Virus genome (UHGV): UHGV-0141061
DNA: 12,554 nt
Direction: 5' to 3' (one strand)
Source of the DNA: a virus
Both the position numbers and the translations under genes were made by a program. Positions 1-10,965 of this stretch are shown here, piece after piece. The notes beneath the pieces are model-generated. The model did not search any database. It saw only the letters and a program-made list of their open reading frames with translations, and had not been told where the DNA came from. Numbering within the stretch: the stretch's first letter is position 1; each line of letters starts with the position of its first letter.

Positions 1-48
1 TCTACACAGAGTAGATCGTCGGCAGCGTCAGATGTGTATAAGAGACAG
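1..48 (+). other. Illumina Nextera adapter (P5 tail CTACAC, i5 index AGAGTAGA, TCGTCGGCAGCGTC, Tn5 mosaic end AGATGTGTATAAGAGACAG); technical, not biological
   Basis: Read directly: 1-7 tctacac, 8-15 agagtaga, 16-29 tcgtcggcagcgtc, 30-48 agatgtgtataagagacag; its reverse complement is at 12508-12554. Confidence 0.9.
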
Positions 49-567
49 GCATATGGGTACGCATCATTCCTTTTTGGTATGGCTATATGTTTATGCGGAT
101 CATATAAGAATAAGGTTATTGGATATGCAATTCTTATTGCATCACTTTACTTGGCTGGATTTAAATATAATCATTATCTTTACGCATGGTTAAAAGAATT
201 TTCATTATCTATTAACAGCATTGAGAAAATAAATTTATACTTGCTTTTCAATCTATTATCTGGAATTGGAGTGGTATATTCCCTATGTAAGATTGGGGTT
301 ATGTCATGGTTTTCTGAATCAAAAATCATGGTCTTTTTAGGAAAGTTATCATTCTCGGCATACTTAATTCAAATGCCTGTATTTTATTGCTTATCAGGGC
401 CAGTTTATCATGAATCAAGGAAAATCATGAGCGACTCCAGCGCATGTTTATCAGCTGTTTTAATATCAGTGGTGATGCTTTATGCATGTTCTTACATCTT
501 TTATTTGCTCATCGACAGAAAAAGCATCGAGGTTTCCCATAGATTTGCCGCGATCTTTTCAAAGTAA
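49..567 (+). CDS. Acyltransferase family 3 (Oac/OafA-like O-antigen acetyltransferase), C-terminal fragment; 5' end cut by the contig/adapter boundary
   Basis: Frame is open from the adapter junction to TAA 565-567; very hydrophobic multi-pass sequence with an FLGKLSFSAYLIQMPVFY-type segment typical of the C-terminal part of family-3 acyltransferases; AT-rich; sits next to a tailspike as in Sf6-type phages. The track's start at 34 lies inside the adapter. Confidence 0.55.
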   Translation, partial: AYGYASFLFGMAICLCGSYKNKVIGYAILIASLYLAGFKYNHYLYAWLKEFSLSINSIEKINLYLLFNLLSGIGVVYSLCKIGVMSWFSESKIMVFLGKLSFSAYLIQMPVFYCLSGPVYHESRKIMSDSSACLSAVLISVVMLYACSYIFYLLIDRKSIEVSHRFAAIFSK

Positions 568-2937: not shown

Positions 2938-3231
2938 ATGCCATTCCACCCAACTGGTGAGGCATCAAGGATGTACAGCAAATACGACGAGGCGCAGTTT
3001 CACTTGAGACTTCCGCATGAACTTCACGCGAAAATTAAACAGCGTGCGAAGATGAATAACAGGTCGCTGAACTCAGAGATAATTGCAGCGATTGAAGAAT
3101 CATTGACTAAACAAAGCTCTGCATCAGTTTACATTGACGATGCAGAGCGTATGGCAGAACAACAATCCGATATGGTAAAGAAAATTGTCTTTGATACGCT
3201 CAAAGAGCTATATAAAAAAGACAGCAGCTAA
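2938..3231 (+). CDS. mnt: Mnt-like ribbon-helix-helix repressor
   Basis: FHLRLPHELHAKIKQRAKMNNRSLNSEIIAAIEESL...DAERMAEQQSDMVKKIVFDTLKELYKK parallels P22 Mnt (FNFRMPMEVREKLKFRAEANGRSMNSELLQIVQDAL...DAERLADEQSELVKKMVFDTLKDLYKK, recalled). An alternative start is ATG 2971. Confidence 0.8.
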   Translation: MPFHPTGEASRMYSKYDEAQFHLRLPHELHAKIKQRAKMNNRSLNSEIIAAIEESLTKQSSASVYIDDAERMAEQQSDMVKKIVFDTLKELYKKDSS

Positions 3232-3238
3232 CTATCAG

Positions 3239-3742
3239 TTACGGAGGATTCCCGATAGGGGGTAAGGGGGTATTTGTATTTATTGTCTTTTGTATATTGT
3301 CTTTTGTGTTTGACTGATTCGGTAAATTGCTTTTTACCGATTTGGTGAAGGTTTGTTTTACCGAATTGGTAAATGTTTTACCGAATCCGTTAACTTTCGT
3401 TTTCCACTCGGAAATGTTTGTATTCATACCAACTTGACGCCCCACCTGAATGAGAACTCCCATTCTGATAAGCTCGTTTTTGGCGGTAGAGCATTTGGTT
3501 GGTGCCATGCCAGTGAGTTCAGCGAACTGTTCGTTTCCGATCCAATCTATTTTTTTGTTGTAACCGTATGTCTTGCGCCACACAGCCATAACAATCAGTA
3601 ACTGATGTAGAGTAAGTCCAGAAAGCATGGCGGCTTCTAACAGTGTGTTTGCAGTCCGAGTGTAGCCATCTTCGAGTTCTGCCACGCGATGCTCCACGAC
3701 CTCCAGTTGAGGCCTGTAATCAGCTAACTTAACGACGCCCAT
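3239..3742 (-). CDS. Replication initiator O-like protein, N-terminal (iteron-binding) domain only; C-terminal domain absent
   Basis: DGYTRTANTLLEA..LTLHQLLIVMAVWRKTYGYNKKIDWIGNEQFAELTGMAPTKCSTAKNELIRMGVLIQ..NISEW parallels the lambda O N-terminal domain (recalled). AGGAG lies upstream of ATG 3740-3742. The ORF ends at TAA 3239-3241 just after the iteron and A+T-rich segment, where lambda O continues for about 130 more codons. Confidence 0.7.
   Translation of the reverse strand: MGVVKLADYRPQLEVVEHRVAELEDGYTRTANTLLEAAMLSGLTLHQLLIVMAVWRKTYGYNKKIDWIGNEQFAELTGMAPTKCSTAKNELIRMGVLIQVGRQVGMNTNISEWKTKVNGFGKTFTNSVKQTFTKSVKSNLPNQSNTKDNIQKTINTNTPLPPIGNPP
3318..3393. repeat. ori-like iteron array inside the O-like gene
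   Basis: Three direct 18-bp repeats TTTTACCGA(T/A)TTGGT(G/A)AA at 3332-3349 and 3356-3373 and TTTTACCGAATCCGTTAA at 3376-3393, plus an inverted partial copy ATTCGGTAAA at 3318-3327; an A+T-rich segment follows at about 3270-3317, arranged as in lambda ori. Confidence 0.5.
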
Positions 3743-3890
3743 GTTTCACTCCTGCTTTGGCTAGTCTGTAAACACCAACAAGGCGCTCTGCGAACGCCCT
3801 GTTATTTGCTGCGGCTACCACTAATCCCTCAGGTGAATCAGGGTGTCGAATCTCTTCTTTTTCCTGGTATTTCTTACGACGTTTTGTCAT
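3729..3890 (-). CDS. Small basic hypothetical protein (53 aa) between cII and O, overlapping the O-like start
   Basis: ATG 3888-3890 with AGGAG 7 nt upstream; MTKRRKKYQEKEEIRHPDSPEGLVVAAANNRAFAERLVGVYRLAKAGVKHGRR; stop TAA 3729-3731 overlaps the O-like start codon in another frame. Below the track's size cut-off; no homolog recognised. Confidence 0.3.
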   Translation of the reverse strand: MTKRRKKYQEKEEIRHPDSPEGLVVAAANNRAFAERLVGVYRLAKAGVKHGRR

Positions 3891-3900
3891 AATTACTCCT

Positions 3901-3976
3901 GTAGATTGATCCAGTAATTCCCTCAGAATTGCATATCAATTTGCTTAAAATCCTCGGTGGCGGCCGGGGATTTTTT
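3901..3976 (+). ncRNA. oop: OOP-like antisense RNA, antisense to the 3' end of cII, with intrinsic terminator
   Basis: gtagattgatccagtaatt..ctcagaa..tcctcggtggcggccgggga+TTTTTT parallels lambda OOP RNA (GUUGAUAGAUCCAGUAAUGACCUCAGAA...CGCUCGGUUGCCGCCGGGCGUUUUUU, recalled); hairpin 3952-3969 followed by a T-tract 3971-3976; a candidate -10 CATAAT is at 3888-3893. Confidence 0.5.
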
Positions 3977-4219
3977 CTTTGTGATTCCATCCAATGCATA
4001 CTTAAAAGCCCTGCTAATCGGACTGATGTCTGATGCCATTCCGAAAGCACACAAGACCGAAGCAATAAACCTCCAGTCCGTTCTGCTTATCTTCGATTCA
4101 TGACAGCCAATCATCTTTGCCAGACCGCGCTGGGTAAGCGTTGACAGGTTGATGAGTAAATCAGTTTCAGCGCGATCAATTTCTCGCTGTGTTGGCTTGC
4201 TATAACTTGCTTGTGTCAT
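3923..4219 (-). CDS. cII: CII-like transcriptional activator
   Basis: C-terminal ..KISRTDW..ITKKKSPAATEDFKQIDMQF parallels lambda CII ..QISRWKRDW..LTNKKRPAATERSEQIQMEF; position downstream of cro. Confidence 0.85.
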   Translation of the reverse strand: MTQASYSKPTQREIDRAETDLLINLSTLTQRGLAKMIGCHESKISRTDWRFIASVLCAFGMASDISPISRAFKYALDGITKKKSPAATEDFKQIDMQF

Positions 4220-4303
4220 TTGTTAATTTTCCAATAGTGAATAGTTAGTTGAAAGGTATGCGTGGAAACGCATATGGCCTTAGTTGGTCAGATATCTTGG
4301 GGC

Positions 4304-4356: not shown

Positions 4357-4557
4357 TTATGCAGTTGTTTTTTTGTTACTTGGGAAGGGCTTTATTTCTT
4401 CCGCATAAACGCTTCCATCAGCGTTTATAGTTAAAAAAATCTTTCGGCCTGCATGAATGGCCTTGTTAATCGCGCTTTGATATACGCCGAGATCTTTAGC
4501 CGTCTTGGTTTGCCCAAAGCGTATTGCATAATCTTTCAGGGTTATGCGTTGTTCCAT
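4357..4557 (-). CDS. cro: Cro repressor, near-identical to lambda Cro
   Basis: 66 aa [66 protein letters not shown]; differs from recalled lambda Cro at about 2 residues; AGGAGG precedes the ATG. Confidence 0.95.
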
Positions 4558-4581
4558 ACAACCTCCTTAGTACAGGCAACC

Positions 4582-5371
<790 letters not shown>

Positions 5372-5402: not shown

Positions 5403-5744
5403 ATGACACAATTTCAACTTGCATTAATCGCTAGAGAAGTTGATGGAGAAGTCATCCATCTTCGCACCAAAGACGGATACATCAATGCCACCGCGATGTG
5501 CAAGTCTGCGGGGAAGCTACTTGCTGACTATACACGACTAAAAACAACACAAGATTTTTTTGATGAATTATCACGCGATATGGGGATTCCCATATCGGAG
5601 TTAATTCAATCATTTAAAGGCGGAAGAGCAGAGAATCAAGGGACTTGGGTTCATCCAGACATCGCAATTAATTTAGCTCAGTGGCTATCTCCAAAATTTG
5701 CAGTGCAAGTATCGAGATGGGTGCGTGAGTGGATGTCAGGTTAA
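5403..5744 (+). CDS. KilA-N domain protein (113 aa) immediately downstream of cI, in the position of lambda rexA
   Basis: AGGA 6 nt upstream of ATG 5403; GYINATAMCKSAGK...GTWVHPDIAINLAQWLSPKFAVQVSRWV is the characteristic KilA-N pattern; same strand as cI. Confidence 0.7.
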   Translation: MTQFQLALIAREVDGEVIHLRTKDGYINATAMCKSAGKLLADYTRLKTTQDFFDELSRDMGIPISELIQSFKGGRAENQGTWVHPDIAINLAQWLSPKFAVQVSRWVREWMSG

Positions 5745-5783
5745 AGAGCGCCTGCCGAACTCCCTATCCACCTTAAGCGGTAT

Positions 5784-6162
5784 ATGACAAACCGAGGCAG
5801 AGTTCCTCATACGCACTTTTCTATGCTTAATGAACTGACGTTTAACTTGGTTGCGCCACTTGAACAGGCCGGATATACGCTGCCAGAAAAAATGGTCCCT
5901 GATATTTCAGAGGGTAGGGTTTTCTCGCAATGGCTCCGTGACAACCGGGGGGTTGAGCCGAAGACATTCCCAACATATAACCATGAGTACCCAGATGGCC
6001 GGACATTCCCGGTACGTCTATACCCAAACGAATATTGCAGATTTCAAACAATACTTCAACGAAGTGTGGCTGCCTCAGTACGCTCCTAAATATTTTGCTG
6101 AACGAGACCAAAGGGCATTGACGTTGATTGAGAAAATCATGCTACCTGACCTTGATTCCTAA
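5784..6162 (+). pseudogene. Hypothetical protein with a broken reading frame (+1 shift between two overlapping ORFs 5784-6089 and 5851-6162)
   Basis: Frame 1 ...FPTYNHEYPDGRTFPVRLYPNEY and frame 2 ...NIADFKQYFNEVWLPQYAPKYFAERDQRALTLIEKIMLPDLDS both look protein-like and switch near 6020-6040; frame 1 is also in frame with the upstream KilA-N ORF across TAA 5742-5744; weak ribosome-binding site. Confidence 0.4.
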
Positions 6163-7504: not shown

Positions 7505-7781
7505 CAATGCCAGGCATAACATCGCCGAGCAATCGAAAGAAAAACAGAACAAGGTAAACGTTGACCTTGCAGCATCAGGCGTGGCGTACAGAGAGCGCCT
7601 TAACATACCTGTTATCTGAGCAGGTAGCACGAGAGCAACCTGAGCACTCACGCGAGTATTTCATGGAGCGCGTCAGATACTATCGCGAGCAGTCGTTAAA
7701 CCTGCCCAAGGGAAGCAACCCATGGTATATCGAGATGGATGAACAGAACGCCAAGAAGTAAGCGCAATTTGAACGAATGCG

Positions 7782-7838
7782 AACCCGCCGAGTGCGGGTT
7801 TTCTTTTATCTGAACTCGCTACGGCGAGTTTTGTTTTA
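7782..7838 (+). terminator. Two tandem intrinsic terminators
   Basis: AACCCGC-cgagt-GCGGGTT followed by TTTTCTTTT (7782-7807), and ACTCGC-tacg-GCGAGT followed by TTTTGTTTT (7814-7838). Confidence 0.6.
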
Positions 7839-8198: not shown

Positions 8199-8259
8199 GC
8201 CTCACACTCGATGAGGCCTGTTTATATCTGATAGAGCCGCTATATGGCGGTTTATTTTT
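8199..8259 (+). terminator. Terminator-like hairpins downstream of the 7851-8195 gene
   Basis: GCCTCA-cactcga-TGAGGC (8199-8217) followed by a T-rich stretch, and CCGC-tatatg-GCGG (8237-8250) followed by TTTATTTTT. Confidence 0.45.
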
Positions 8260-8274
8260 GCCTGGAGAATTAAG

Positions 8275-8466
8275 ATGACCGATACCAGCCTGATTCCTGA
8301 GAAAGAAGTGATGAACAAGCTCGGTGTTTCATCACGTCAGACAATCTGGAACTATACCAAACGGCACGGATTTCCGAAGCCAGTCAGAACCCACCCCAAA
8401 TCATACCTTCGTGAAGCTGTTGAAGGGTGGATTCTTAACGGTGGCGTTAATCAGAAATGCTCCTGA
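8275..8466 (+). CDS. AlpA/Xis-family DNA-binding protein (excisionase or regulator)
   Basis: GGAGA upstream of ATG 8275; ..MNKLGVSSRQTIWNYTKRHGFPKPVRT..YLREAVEGWI is the AlpA-type winged-helix pattern; lies beside the integrase; its 3' end overlaps the integrase 3' end by 20 bp. Confidence 0.8.
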   Translation: MTDTSLIPEKEVMNKLGVSSRQTIWNYTKRHGFPKPVRTHPKSYLREAVEGWILNGGVNQKCS

Positions 8467-8920
8467 TGTGCCAGAACAATTTATCAGCGTGAAGCTCATA
8501 CGCTTTGCGCTGAGCCTCTATCCAATCGAGTTTATTGTATACGGACATTATCCCGCCAAGTTCATGACCGAGCATTCGCTCAGTAACATGAGGCTCGACA
8601 TTCATCTCGGACAGCCGTGTAACAAGCGTTCTTCTGAAATCATGTGTTCGCCAGTAACCTAGGTCCATCCCTCCCCTTATTCTATTTACGAATCGGTTGG
8701 CTGCAGCGATGCTGATCGGTTTGTTTATGTCTTCTCCAGGGAAAAGAACATCATTGTACGTTGTCATGGCCTTTTCGAGGAAAGGCTTAATTTGTTCGAA
8801 GATTGGACGGCGGATAACATTACCCATCTTGCTATGCTCTTTCGGTACGGTCCATACGTTGTCCAGCAGGTCAAATTCTGTCTTTATTGCCAGCCTAAGT
8901 TCTGAGAGCCTCGCCCCCAC
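8447..8920 (-). pseudogene. Tyrosine integrase (P4 type), C-terminal catalytic fragment
   Basis: ..GARLSELRLAIKTEFDLLDNVWTVP..HDFRRT..LGHELGGIMSVYNKLDW.. shows the catalytic R/H-x-x-R/Y region; its frame differs from the central fragment at a C5 run (8914-8918). Confidence 0.8.
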
Positions 8921-9136
8921 AGCATAAGCATCTGATGAAGTAGCTTATTTGACGTAGACGCACGGCTTCTTTCAATAGCAAGCCAAATCTTAGCCAGTTC
9001 GTGATACGACAGTACCCGATCCCCTACCTCAGCGCGGGAGCCGAAGTCCCTTGGTTGGATGCTCATAATTGCGCAACTATCTATCAACTGACGCCGCATG
9101 CACCAACTAATTGCTGATCTTAGTTGACTTAGCACC
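8884..9136 (-). pseudogene. Tyrosine integrase, central fragment between the IS insertion and the frameshift
   Basis: In frame with the N-terminal fragment once the IS and one target duplication are removed (1341 bp, a multiple of 3); ends at a stop 8884-8886 created by the frameshift. Confidence 0.6.
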
Positions 9137-9200
9137 TGATGTAGCCCCCTGAAACACCAGACAGTAGCTGTATCTCCAGATAAGAGATAGGCTTGAATAT

Positions 9201-9596
9201 ATGTCTAACACTAACACCAATATTGAGATGACCGGGATCCTGTTAGGGCAAGAAGTCCGTAAACGTAAAACTCCTCAGGAGAAGATCGCCATTATCCAGC
9301 AGACGATGGAGCCGGGTATGAATGTCTCCCATGTCGCCCGCCTGCATGGTATCCAGCCCAGCCTGCTGTTTAAGTGGAAGAAGCAATATCAGGAAGGCAG
9401 CCTCACCGCCGTTGCGGCTGGAGAGGAAGTCGTTCCTGCTTCTGAGCTTACTGCTGCTCTGAAGCAGGTCCGGGAGCTTCAGCGCCTTCTGGGCAAGAAG
9501 ACGATAGAAGTTGAGATCCTAAAAGAAGCCGTGGAGTACGGTCAGTCGCGAAAATGGATAGCGCACGCGCCCTTGTTGCCAAAGGACGGGGAATAG
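9201..9596 (+). CDS. IS3-family transposase OrfA (helix-turn-helix and leucine zipper)
   Basis: ..[78 protein letters not shown].. resembles IS2 OrfA. Confidence 0.85.
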
Positions 9597-10435
9597 CCAT
9601 GGTCAGCCGGACCATGGGCGTGTCGCGTGCGCAACTGTCACTGCGGATTAACCGTTCTGCCGACTGGCAGGACAGGCGCTGTAACCGGCGTAATGAAGAA
9701 GCAGACGCAGAAATACTGTCGGCTATCCTCAACATTATCAGCGATATGCCGAGTTATGGTTATCGACGCGTGTGGGGCATCCTGCGCAAGCAACGTCGCA
9801 CAGAGGGACAGCCACCTGTGAATGCCAAACGGCTTTACAGGATAATGAGCGAGCATAACCTGTTGTTGTTGCATCACAAACCAGAGCGACCGAAGCGTGA
9901 ACATAAGGGCAAGATAGCGGTGGCAGAAAGCGATATGCGCTGGTGTTCAGATGGCTTCGAGTTCGGCTGCGACAACGGCGAAAAACTGCGGGTAACGTTC
10001 GCGCTGGACTGCTGCGACCGTGAGGCCATAGACTGGGCAGCAAGCACGGGAGGCTATGACAGTTCGACCGTGCAGGATGTGATGCTGAGGTCGGTGGAAA
10101 AGCGCTTCGGCGACAGGCTGCCGGAAACACCAGTGCAGTGGCTGACGGACAACGGTTCAGCATATACCGCGCATGAAACGCGGAGGTTCGCCAAAGAGCT
10201 GAATCTGGAGCCATGTACAACAGCGGTGAGCAGCCCGCAGAGCAATGGCATGGCCGAACGGTTCGTGAAGACGATGAAGGAAGACTATATCGCGTTCATG
10301 CCGAAACCGGATGTGAGAACAGCCCTGCGGAACCTTGCAGCGGCGTTCACGCATTACAATGAAAATCACCCGCATAGTGCGCTGGGATATCACTCTCCGA
10401 GAGAATACCGGCGGCAGCGGGCATCGTTAACTTAA
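9554..10435 (+). CDS. IS3-family transposase OrfB (DDE catalytic domain), in the -1 frame relative to OrfA
   Basis: ..[92 protein letters not shown].. is a DDE integrase-core pattern resembling IS2 OrfB; overlaps orfA by 43 nt. Confidence 0.85.
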
Positions 10436-10472
10436 GATACAAAAGCTGTCCGGAAATGGCGGGTCAAGATCA

Positions 10473-10965
10473 GCACCTGCCTTGCTCGGCGTGGATTATC
10501 TTTTTCTTCTTCGGTAAGCAGGTCAACCCATTGCTTAACCGTGATAGAAGATGCCGGACGATTAGGGAAGGCGTCATGCATGCGCTTCATAACCGTTGAT
10601 CGGTAAAGTGCCTGGGTCTTTTCTCTGAGAGTTGTAGAGACGTAGTTGTCGAACCAGTAGTCGAGACACTGGGCGACCGTCATGGAGTTCTCCACCTTCT
10701 CTTCAAAATAGGTGCGTGGATCCGTTCCTGAGAAATAGAGCTTCCGCAAGTCAGCAGTGATCTGTCTGGCATCCTTCAAAGACAGGGATGGGTATCGACC
10801 AAGCCCAAGTCGTTTAGGCTTGCCATACCAGCGATAGCGGTACTGGAACTGGATGACCCCCTTCGGTGAAATTCGTACGCTGAGGCCATCGGCATCAGCC
10901 ACTTCTTGTGGGCCCGAATATGGTTTACCATAAATAGTACGCAGTTTTGTGTCGCTTATAGCCAT
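10473..10965 (-). pseudogene. Tyrosine integrase (P4 type), N-terminal fragment upstream of the IS insertion
   Basis: MAISDTKLRTIYGKPYSGPQEVADADGLSVRISPKGVIQFQYRYRWYGKPKRLGLGRYPSLSLKDAR is the characteristic N-terminal arm-binding domain of P4-type integrases; the track ORF continues 13 codons into the IS before stopping. Confidence 0.8.

What the first reader, a model, noticed from the sequence alone, without database searches (positions are those of the whole stretch)
3901..3976. Conserved OOP-like antisense RNA retained in a remnant lacking replication genes
The OOP promoter-to-terminator unit is conserved relative to lambda and overlaps the cII 3' end antisense. Its retention, along with intact cII, cI and cro, suggests the lysis-lysogeny regulatory circuit is under purifying selection even though the element cannot replicate.
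Basis: partly seen in the sequence, partly recalled or inferred. Interest (0 to 1): 0.35.

Follow-up and report, generated by a model that had tools for sequence, protein, structure and literature searches.

The report
Ordinary oop antisense RNA in prophage remnant
The stretch is a normal copy of oop, the long-known small antisense RNA gene of lambda-like phages, sitting in a recently truncated E. coli prophage; its survival there is what one expects by default and gives no evidence of selection.

Summary
Window 3901-3977 (+) is collinear with lambda oop, with no indels: 58/77 identical to lambda and 75/77 to HK97. It has the conserved extended -10 (TGTCATAAT, 3885-3893) and a two-hairpin fold (-31.8 kcal/mol, z -5.5). 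An intact intrinsic terminator (3947-3974 plus U-run) lies inside the last codons of cII (3923-4219, minus strand). Across 33 distinct variants the terminator stem pairs in 98.5% of cells, with two compensatory pairs.

The element is a real remnant. O is cut after residue 164 of 276, the helicase gene and all late genes are gone, and the same junction recurs in many public assemblies.

The purifying-selection inference is not supported:
- Remnant copies differ by about 0.01-0.07%, so roughly 0.07 or fewer changes are expected in the oop unit.
- Nearly every oop base is also constrained by cII codons or by the Shine-Dalgarno/ATG of gp53.
- One copy has a swapped immunity region, which shows recombination with other phages.
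- One copy has cro Q16*, and two derived pR promoter-down changes exist.

This oop type occurs in 755 of 5426 complete E. coli genomes and 346 phage records. It is already known and of low interest.

The parts
3864..3869 (+). Candidate pO -35 (CTGGTA, 18-nt spacer). It is weak (3/6 to TTGACA) and of the HK97/P22 type, not the lambda type.
   Evidence: Not called by the promoter scan.
3885..3893 (+). pO extended -10 (TGTCATAAT). Its CAT is the reverse complement of the gp53 ATG.
   Evidence: The TG and CATAAT are identical in lambda. CATAAT is invariant across all 22 distinct upstream variants; the TG extension is kept in most of them.
3897..3916 (.). LexA-box-like sequence TCCTGTAGATTGATCCAGTA (CTG-N10-CAG) spanning +1, at the same position as in lambda.
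   Evidence: Positional homology. A LexA site in lambda oop-pO is cited in PMC5869508. The core pattern is not above chance in the window.
3901..3977 (+). Predicted oop transcript, 77 nt by homology to lambda.
3901..3944 (+). Hairpin I of OOP. The pairing register differs from lambda, but a hairpin forms in all 33 variants.
3947..3976 (+). Terminator tO: 12-bp stem 3947-3958/3963-3974, loop GGCG, U-run to 3976.
3923..4219 (-). cII (98 aa, HK97 type). Its last 52 coding nt plus the stop codon are complementary to oop nt 23-77.
   Evidence: (PF05269).
3729..3890 (-). gp53-like small gene (phrog_1331, function unknown). Its start codon and Shine-Dalgarno overlap pO.
3239..3742 (-). Truncated replication initiator O' (residues 1-164 of 276, then 3 foreign codons).
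   Evidence: (PF04492).
3273..3393 (.). Retained origin: four iterons (3310-3393) and an AT-rich tract (3273-3306).
3232..3250 (.). Deletion junction joining O' to the Arc/Mnt-tailspike end of the prophage.
4357..4557 (-). cro (66 aa, lambda type), intact in the window.
4558..4657 (.). OR1-3 with pR and pRM. In the window the pR -10 is GATAGT.
4658..5371 (+). cI repressor (237 aa, lambda immunity), intact.

Best explanation
Window 3901-3977 (+) is the oop gene of a lambdoid prophage remnant that lies between sbcB and dacD in E. coli. The remnant combines lambda/HK97 immunity with an HK97-type cII-gp53-O module. By homology with lambda, RNA polymerase starts at G3901 from pO (extended -10 TGTCATAAT) and transcribes against the direction of pR. 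It stops at the intrinsic terminator inside cII, giving a ~77-nt RNA with two hairpins. [quoted passage not shown] In lambda this duplex leads to RNase III-dependent cleavage and loss of CII, which pushes the phage towards lytic growth (inferred here, shown for lambda). The unit looks fully functional in sequence. It is present because it lies inside the small cI-cro-cII block that a recent large deletion happened to spare, not because selection has demonstrably kept it. With N, O-C/P and all late genes gone, and with oop output in lambda staying basal in replication-defective prophages, it probably has little or no role in this element.
For: Homology and collinearity with lambda and HK97 oop are shown. 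The two-hairpin fold has z -5.5 on the + strand only, and the terminator is called by the scan. Among 33 distinct variants from 130 loci the terminator stem is paired in 98.5% of cells, against 37-58% for slid controls. Two pairs show compensatory changes (C-G/U-A and G-C/C-G), and RNAalifold independently predicts the same helix. All 33 variants fold into two hairpins. The four terminator variants change the CII tail (SPAATED, RPAATER, SPVAAGD, RPVCKTER) while keeping the stem. The remnant is real and recurrent: the exact 167-aa O' occurs in 58 blocks of public assemblies with the same gene order. The copies are nearly identical at 99.5-99.99%. Literature supports the mechanism and context: OOP and RNase III (PMC2327240), pO-oop-tO suppressing CII (PMC5869508), an OOP-like RNA detected by RNA-seq in the P22-like prophage BTP1 (PMC7067206), and basal oop output with no rise in O, P or ori mutants (PMC3349717).
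Against: There are no transcript data for this element. The -35 region is not lambda-like and is weak, and the promoter scan does not call pO. PMC5869508 reports that 45 nt upstream of lambda oop is not enough and that 94 nt reaching into O is needed; that stretch is replaced here by gp53 sequence. Rfam has no oop model, and lambda's own oop gives no hit, so no curated covariance test was possible. An independent remnant (EC2641, L003) with a different deletion also keeps gp53-cII-cro-cI. That leaves some room for selection on the block as a whole.
Confidence: 0.85

Rival explanations
1. One reading: the cI-cro-cII-oop switch is kept by purifying selection in the replication-dead remnant.
For: cI, cro, cII and gp53 are intact, while bstA, recT, int and the tailspike carry lesions. 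The few changes in cII among the copies are mostly synonymous: 4070, 4196 and 4202. A second remnant with a different deletion keeps the same block.
Against: Divergence among the copies is too small to test this, with about 0.07 or fewer changes expected in oop. Several changes argue the other way: cro Q16* in one sample, derived pR -10 and -35 down changes, and an oop nt 19-20 polymorphism that removes two pairs of the inner stem. An immunity swap in L138 shows that recombination can refresh the block. Escape of a 1.65-kb block from about 6 lesions has p of about 0.26. N appears to be missing, so the circuit is incomplete. Any selection would plausibly act on cI (immunity, or repression of toxic genes) rather than on oop.
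Confidence: 0.08
2. The retained oop, alone or together with the adjacent ori iterons, benefits the host by acting in trans on superinfecting phages. It could do so as an antisense RNA against their identical cII tail. Alternatively it could act as the CI-independent 'inhibition phenotype' that lambda tO-oop-pO plus ITN3-4 confer from plasmids.
For: The deletion endpoint (3250/3251) lies just past the iterons and AT-rich tract, so tO-oop-pO through ori is kept whole. PMC3349717 shows that oop transcription plus iterons are required for the phenotype, and that oop+ plasmids act in trans on the cII of other phages. Many phages share this exact oop/cII tail.
Against: The phenotype was shown only for multicopy plasmids, and the remnant is single copy with basal oop output expected. 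The EC2641 remnant lost the iterons yet kept oop. Lowering CII in an incoming phage would favour lysis, which harms the host.
Confidence: 0.05
3. The sequence is conserved only because it encodes the CII tail and the gp53 translation start, and no RNA is made from it in HK97-type modules.
For: The -35 is weak and of a different type, and the promoter scan does not call pO. All conserved promoter bases double as Shine-Dalgarno or ATG on the other strand. Lambda pO needs extended upstream sequence (PMC5869508).
Against: Compensatory stem changes alter CII residues yet keep the pairing, and a U-run follows the stem on the + strand only. Fold stability is specific to the + strand. An OOP RNA is seen by RNA-seq in a P22-like prophage.
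Confidence: 0.07

Closest known systems
Bacteriophage lambda OOP RNA (pO-oop-tO)
   Same: It sits at the same position between cII and the replication module and has the same orientation. It has the same 77-nt length without indels and the same 55-nt overlap with the cII end. It shares the extended -10 that overlaps the start codon of the next gene, the CTG-N10-CAG at +1, and the two-hairpin architecture with a 12-bp terminator.
   Different: It is 75% identical. The -35 and upstream region differ, being gp53 instead of O. Hairpin I uses a register shifted by 4 nt. Two terminator pairs are swapped by compensatory changes.
oop of HK97 and HK97-type cII-gp53-O modules (HK106, mEp234, Stx2 phages 1717 and 2851)
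   Same: It is 75/77 identical to HK97 and 99.1% identical to HK106 over 106 nt. The flanking cII and gp53 are the same.
   Different: There are single-base differences (nt 3 and one loop base). Here the downstream O gene is truncated and the phage is dead.
OOP-BTP1 of the Salmonella P22-like prophage BTP1 (PMC7067206)
   Same: It is an antisense RNA at the 3' end of cII, detected in a lysogen transcriptome. The P22-type upstream region resembles the one here, and P22 matches nt 3881-3915.
   Different: BTP1 is a functional prophage. Its sequence was not compared directly here.
Lambda oop-ori 'inhibition phenotype' fragment (PMC3349717)
   Same: The remnant keeps tO-oop-pO plus all four iterons, which are the elements required for that phenotype.
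   Different: That phenotype is plasmid-borne and multicopy and is specific to the lambda rep type. Here the module is a single chromosomal copy with a P22/HK97-type origin, and it is untested.

Membership tests
OOP antisense RNA of lambdoid phages | Located between cII and the replication initiator module, on the strand opposite to pR transcription | tested here: met
   cII 3923-4219 (-), gp53 3729-3890 (-), O' 3239-3742 (-), oop on +.
OOP antisense RNA of lambdoid phages | Sequence homology to lambda oop over the whole transcript | tested here: met
   58/77 identical with no indels; 75/77 to HK97.
OOP antisense RNA of lambdoid phages | Intrinsic terminator tO inside the cII coding end, giving about 77 nt | tested here: met
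   12-bp stem plus U-run at 3947-3976. Pairing is 98.5% with two compensatory pairs across 33 variants. The true 3' end was not measured.
OOP antisense RNA of lambdoid phages | 3' portion complementary to about 52-55 nt of the cII mRNA end | tested here: met
   oop nt 23-77 cover the cII stop codon plus 52 coding nt. PMC5869508 gives 52 for lambda.
OOP antisense RNA of lambdoid phages | Promoter pO with its -10 located 8-13 nt upstream of +1 | tested here: inconclusive
   The extended -10 TGTCATAAT is conserved. The -35 is weak and not lambda-like, the scan makes no call, and the conserved bases double as the gp53 Shine-Dalgarno and ATG.
OOP antisense RNA of lambdoid phages | LexA operator overlapping pO/+1 | tested here: inconclusive
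   CTG-N10-CAG is kept at the lambda position (3899-3914). The core pattern is not enriched, with 6 hits against 4.2 expected.
OOP antisense RNA of lambdoid phages | A ~77-nt transcript is made and causes RNase III-dependent loss of cII mRNA | not testable with these tools
   No expression data are available. The mechanism is taken from lambda (PMC2327240, PMC5869508).
Domesticated prophage module under purifying selection | Fewer disruptive or non-synonymous changes than neutral expectation within the post-deletion lineage | tested here: inconclusive
   About 20 loci from about 17 distinct contigs carrying the junction show 0.01-0.07% divergence, which is too few changes to test. cro Q16* and two pR-down changes point the other way.
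Lambda oop-ori inhibition-phenotype module | tO-oop-pO together with ori iterons ITN3-4 | tested here: met
   oop at 3901-3977 and four iterons at 3310-3393.
Lambda oop-ori inhibition-phenotype module | Present in many copies per cell, and excludes phages of the same rep type | tested here: not met
   The locus is chromosomal, between sbcB and a dacD-like gene, and is a single copy. The phenotype itself is not testable here.

The most novel reading that the evidence does not exclude
The block spared by the deletion (tO-oop-pO through the four ori iterons and the AT-rich tract) might work as a chromosomal, CI-independent exclusion or decision-skewing device against superinfecting phages that share this cII tail and rep type. 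That would be a natural counterpart of the plasmid 'inhibition phenotype' described for lambda. The derived pR-down and cro-null changes would then reflect ongoing domestication of the remnant.
Probability: 0.05. Interest if true: 0.45.

Novelty: already known. Interest (0 to 1): 0.12.

Why it matters
It matters little. oop is one of the oldest known antisense RNAs, and this allele is common: 755 of 5426 complete E. coli genomes and 346 phage records carry it. The useful result is negative and methodological. An intact small element in a prophage remnant says nothing about selection when three things hold: the remnant copies are about 99.9% or more identical, the element overlaps coding and translation signals on the other strand, and the remnant recombines with live phages. 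If the low-probability reading were true, it would give a natural example of a dead prophage using an oop-ori fragment for phage exclusion.

Tried and rejected
- Rfam at gathering and at E<=1 gave no oop hit, not even for lambda's own oop, so Rfam has no such family and is uninformative here. The two weak hits (rsmX-like at 7700-7834, Xist) are chance level.
- The sigma-70 scan did not call pO.
- The LexA core pattern is not above chance.
- No complete E. coli genome spans the O'/Arc junction, which raised the possibility of an assembly chimera. I rejected that because the exact truncated O protein and gene order recur in 58 blocks of independent assemblies. The junction 33-mer was found once more in the JGI metagenomes and not at all in the GTDB representative genomes.
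- L140 seemed to lack cII, but the gap is a run of scaffold Ns.
- I considered a synonymous-site test for oop constraint within cII. I dropped it because the CII tail is a separate mosaic module that assorts independently.

Full report
**What is at the coordinates**

The plus strand from 3860 to 3990 aligns with the leftward strand of lambda around oop. Window G3901 corresponds to lambda oop +1 (38675), and there is no indel through 3977. Identity is 58/77 to lambda and 75/77 to HK97. The surrounding 601 bases (3700-4300) are 98.8% identical to the HK97 cII-gp53-O segment and 96% identical to several Stx2 phages.

The minus strand encodes cII (3923-4219, 98 aa, 97/98 to HK97). It also encodes the small gene gp53 (3729-3890, identical to HK97 gp53, phrog_1331, function unknown) and an O-type initiator fragment (3239-3742). 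The cII stop codon is at 3923-3925, so oop nt 23-77 are complementary to the last 52 coding bases plus the stop codon. This is the same geometry as in lambda (PMC5869508).

**Structure and signals**

The 77-mer folds into two hairpins at -31.8 kcal/mol, with z = -5.5 and 0 of 200 shuffles as stable. Lambda oop folds at -28.5 with z = -3.9. The opposite strand of the window is unremarkable at z = -1.3. The terminator scan calls a 12-bp stem at 3947-3974 followed by a T-run.

The extended -10 (TGTCATAAT, 3885-3893) is identical to lambda's and lies 7 nt before +1. The -35 region is not lambda-like. The best candidate is CTGGTA at 3864-3869 with an 18-nt spacer, and the promoter scan does not call pO. 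A CTG-N10-CAG motif spans +1 (3899-3914) at the same place as the LexA site reported for lambda oop-pO (PMC5869508). That core pattern is not above chance in the window, with 6 hits against 4.2 expected. The LexA assignment therefore rests on positional homology only.

Rfam holds no oop family. Lambda's own oop gives no hit at E<=1.

**Comparative evidence that oop is a real structured RNA in this phage group**

A scan of viral contigs for a 19-base core of oop returned 120 loci. Together with the other loci these gave 130 copies and 33 distinct transcript sequences.

- All 33 variants fold into a 5' hairpin plus a terminator hairpin.
- On the alignment, the 12-bp terminator helix is paired in 98.5% of cells, against 37-58% when the partner is slid by 1-3 columns.
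- Two pairs show compensatory changes (C-G to U-A and G-C to C-G) in 15 of the 33 variants. Other pairs show G-U/A-U and U-G/C-G changes.
- RNAalifold predicts the same helix on its own.
- These variants change the CII C-terminal residues (SPAATED, RPAATER, SPVAAGD, RPVCKTER) while the stem is kept. This argues for a constraint on the RNA or terminator and not only on the protein.
- Hairpin I is kept through a register shift rather than column-by-column covariation.

These counts reflect a few ancestral events shared by many sequences, and the search pattern fixed nt 8-28.

The unit is common. There are 346 phage records with a match, 214 of them nearly full length, from Escherichia, Salmonella, Klebsiella and Stx phages. 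In addition, 755 of 5426 complete E. coli genomes carry it.

**The element is a true remnant**

O' keeps residues 1-164 of a 276-aa protein, followed by three foreign codons. The DnaB-type helicase gene that follows O in intact relatives is absent. The four origin iterons (3310-3393) and the AT-rich tract (3273-3306) are still there, and the deletion endpoint (3250/3251) lies just beyond them.

The deletion joins O' to an Arc/Mnt-like gene (2938-3231). Next come a P22-type tailspike (1668-2897 and 603-1634, split by a nonsense codon) and an O-antigen acyltransferase. To the right of cI there are further lesions:
- bstA is broken into three pieces.
- No N gene is detectable.
- recT is truncated.
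- The integrase is split by an IS3-family element (about 9137-10472).

The window ends in sbcB.

No complete E. coli genome spans the junction. However, the exact 167-aa O' is on record in 58 blocks of public assemblies. These are mostly human gut metagenomes plus one NCBI genome, and all show the same gene order and a dacD-like gene beyond the acyltransferase. The junction is therefore real and belongs to a circulating lineage.

**Testing the purifying-selection claim**

Copies that share the junction are 99.5-99.99% identical to the window. Outside two obvious recombination tracts the differences are 1-6 per 3.4-9.7 kb. At 6.5e-4 or less per site, the ~114-nt oop unit is expected to carry about 0.07 or fewer changes. 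An intact oop is therefore the null expectation.

One change is in fact seen: TC to GA at oop nt 19-20 in one sublineage. It removes two pairs of the inner stem and recreates the lambda sequence.

The unit is also not free to vary. Nt 23-77 are cII codons, the CAT of the -10 is the gp53 start codon, and ACTCCT is its Shine-Dalgarno sequence.

The remnant recombines with other phages. L138 has the same junction, cII and gp53 but a different cro and cI N-terminus. Across phages, the upstream module, the oop 3' type and the cII body assort freely.

The pR arm shows derived damaging changes:
- cro Q16* in one sample (L010/L136).
- pR -10 GATAAT to GATAGT in the window's sublineage. This change is absent from the other remnant sublineage (L006, L007, L011) and from the 35 other lambda-immunity loci held.
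- pR -35 TTGACT to TTAACT in L008.

Some evidence favours selection on the block as a whole. The few cII changes are mostly synonymous. An unrelated remnant at argW (EC2641) with a different deletion keeps the same gp53-cII-cro-cI-KilA-N block at 99.7% identity. This is weak and would most plausibly concern cI. With about six lesions over about 8 kb, a 1.65-kb block escapes by chance about 26% of the time.

**Mechanism and expected activity**

In lambda, OOP pairs with the cII message and promotes RNase III-dependent decay (PMC2327240). pO-oop-tO on a plasmid abolishes CII activity (PMC5869508). oop is dispensable for growth and has little role in removing CII after SOS induction. Its level is low in a repressed prophage and rises only when the prophage replicates, not in O, P or ori mutants (PMC3349717).

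An OOP-like RNA has been seen by RNA-seq in the P22-like prophage BTP1 (PMC7067206). This supports activity of non-lambda pO types. I infer that the window's oop is probably transcribed at a basal level and has no target unless pR is derepressed or a related phage infects.

**Less ordinary reading**

Plasmids carrying lambda tO-oop-pO plus iterons ITN3-4 silence replication of incoming lambda-rep phages independently of CI. oop+ plasmids also act in trans on the cII of other phages (PMC3349717). The remnant keeps exactly this set of elements. However, it is single copy, the EC2641 remnant lost the iterons, and lowering an invader's CII would favour lysis. I give this reading about 5%.

**Verdict**

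The element is already known and very common. The selection inference is not supported by the data available.

Noticed in passing
window 1-49: The window starts with Illumina Nextera adapter sequence (TCGTCGGCAGCGTCAGATGTGTATAAGAGACAG). Homology to the other copies begins at base 49, so this is a contig-end artefact. It also creates the spurious 'MCIRDR/MYKRQ' ORF starts.
   Followed up: yes
window 4512, 4583, 4608 (pR/cro); loci L008, L010/L136: Within the remnant lineage, three derived changes hit the pR-cro arm. The pR -10 is GATAAT->GATAGT in the window sublineage, the pR -35 is TTGACT->TTAACT in L008, and cro carries Q16* in one sample. That is about 3 of roughly 9-13 derived point changes falling in ~130 bp of 9 kb. 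It suggests selection for, or tolerance of, silencing of pR. This is a post hoc observation.
   Followed up: partly
window 1668: The P22-type tailspike is split by a TGG->TGA nonsense codon (W410*). Among the copies that cover this position, only the window and L004 have it; the others encode an intact 748-aa protein.
   Followed up: yes
window 3273-3393: The origin (four iterons plus the AT-rich tract) survives intact inside the truncated O gene. The deletion endpoint lies only about 20 bp beyond it.
   Followed up: partly
window 5403-6162: The BstA abortive-infection gene next to cI is broken into a KilA-N piece and two C-terminal pieces (phrog_6287). The same fragmentation is seen in the other copies.
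   Followed up: partly
window ~9137-10472, flanked by 8447-8920 and 10432-10965: An IS3-family element (orfA 9201-9596, orfB 9554-10435) splits the prophage integrase into C-terminal and N-terminal fragments.
   Followed up: partly
L138 (ERZ920157), 1-1100: One carrier of the same O'/Arc junction has a different immunity region (71-aa Cro-like protein, 217-aa repressor). The crossovers lie between window 4350 and 4961, so the remnant has recombined with another phage.
   Followed up: partly
L003 (E. coli EC2641, argW-intS locus) 8216-10231: A second, independent prophage remnant with a different deletion and at a different chromosomal site keeps the same gp53-cII-cro-cI-KilA-N block, 99.7% identical to the window.
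   Followed up: partly
oop region across L012-L131: oop sits at a mosaic junction. Three upstream modules (lambda O, gp53, a third type), four terminator/CII-tail types and two CII bodies occur in most combinations. The last ~18 CII residues travel with oop rather than with the CII body.
   Followed up: partly
window 7700-7834 (+): There is a weak, sub-threshold Rfam resemblance to rsmX (26.8 bits against a gathering score of 56, E = 0.14) ending in a terminator-like hairpin. It is probably chance.
   Followed up: no
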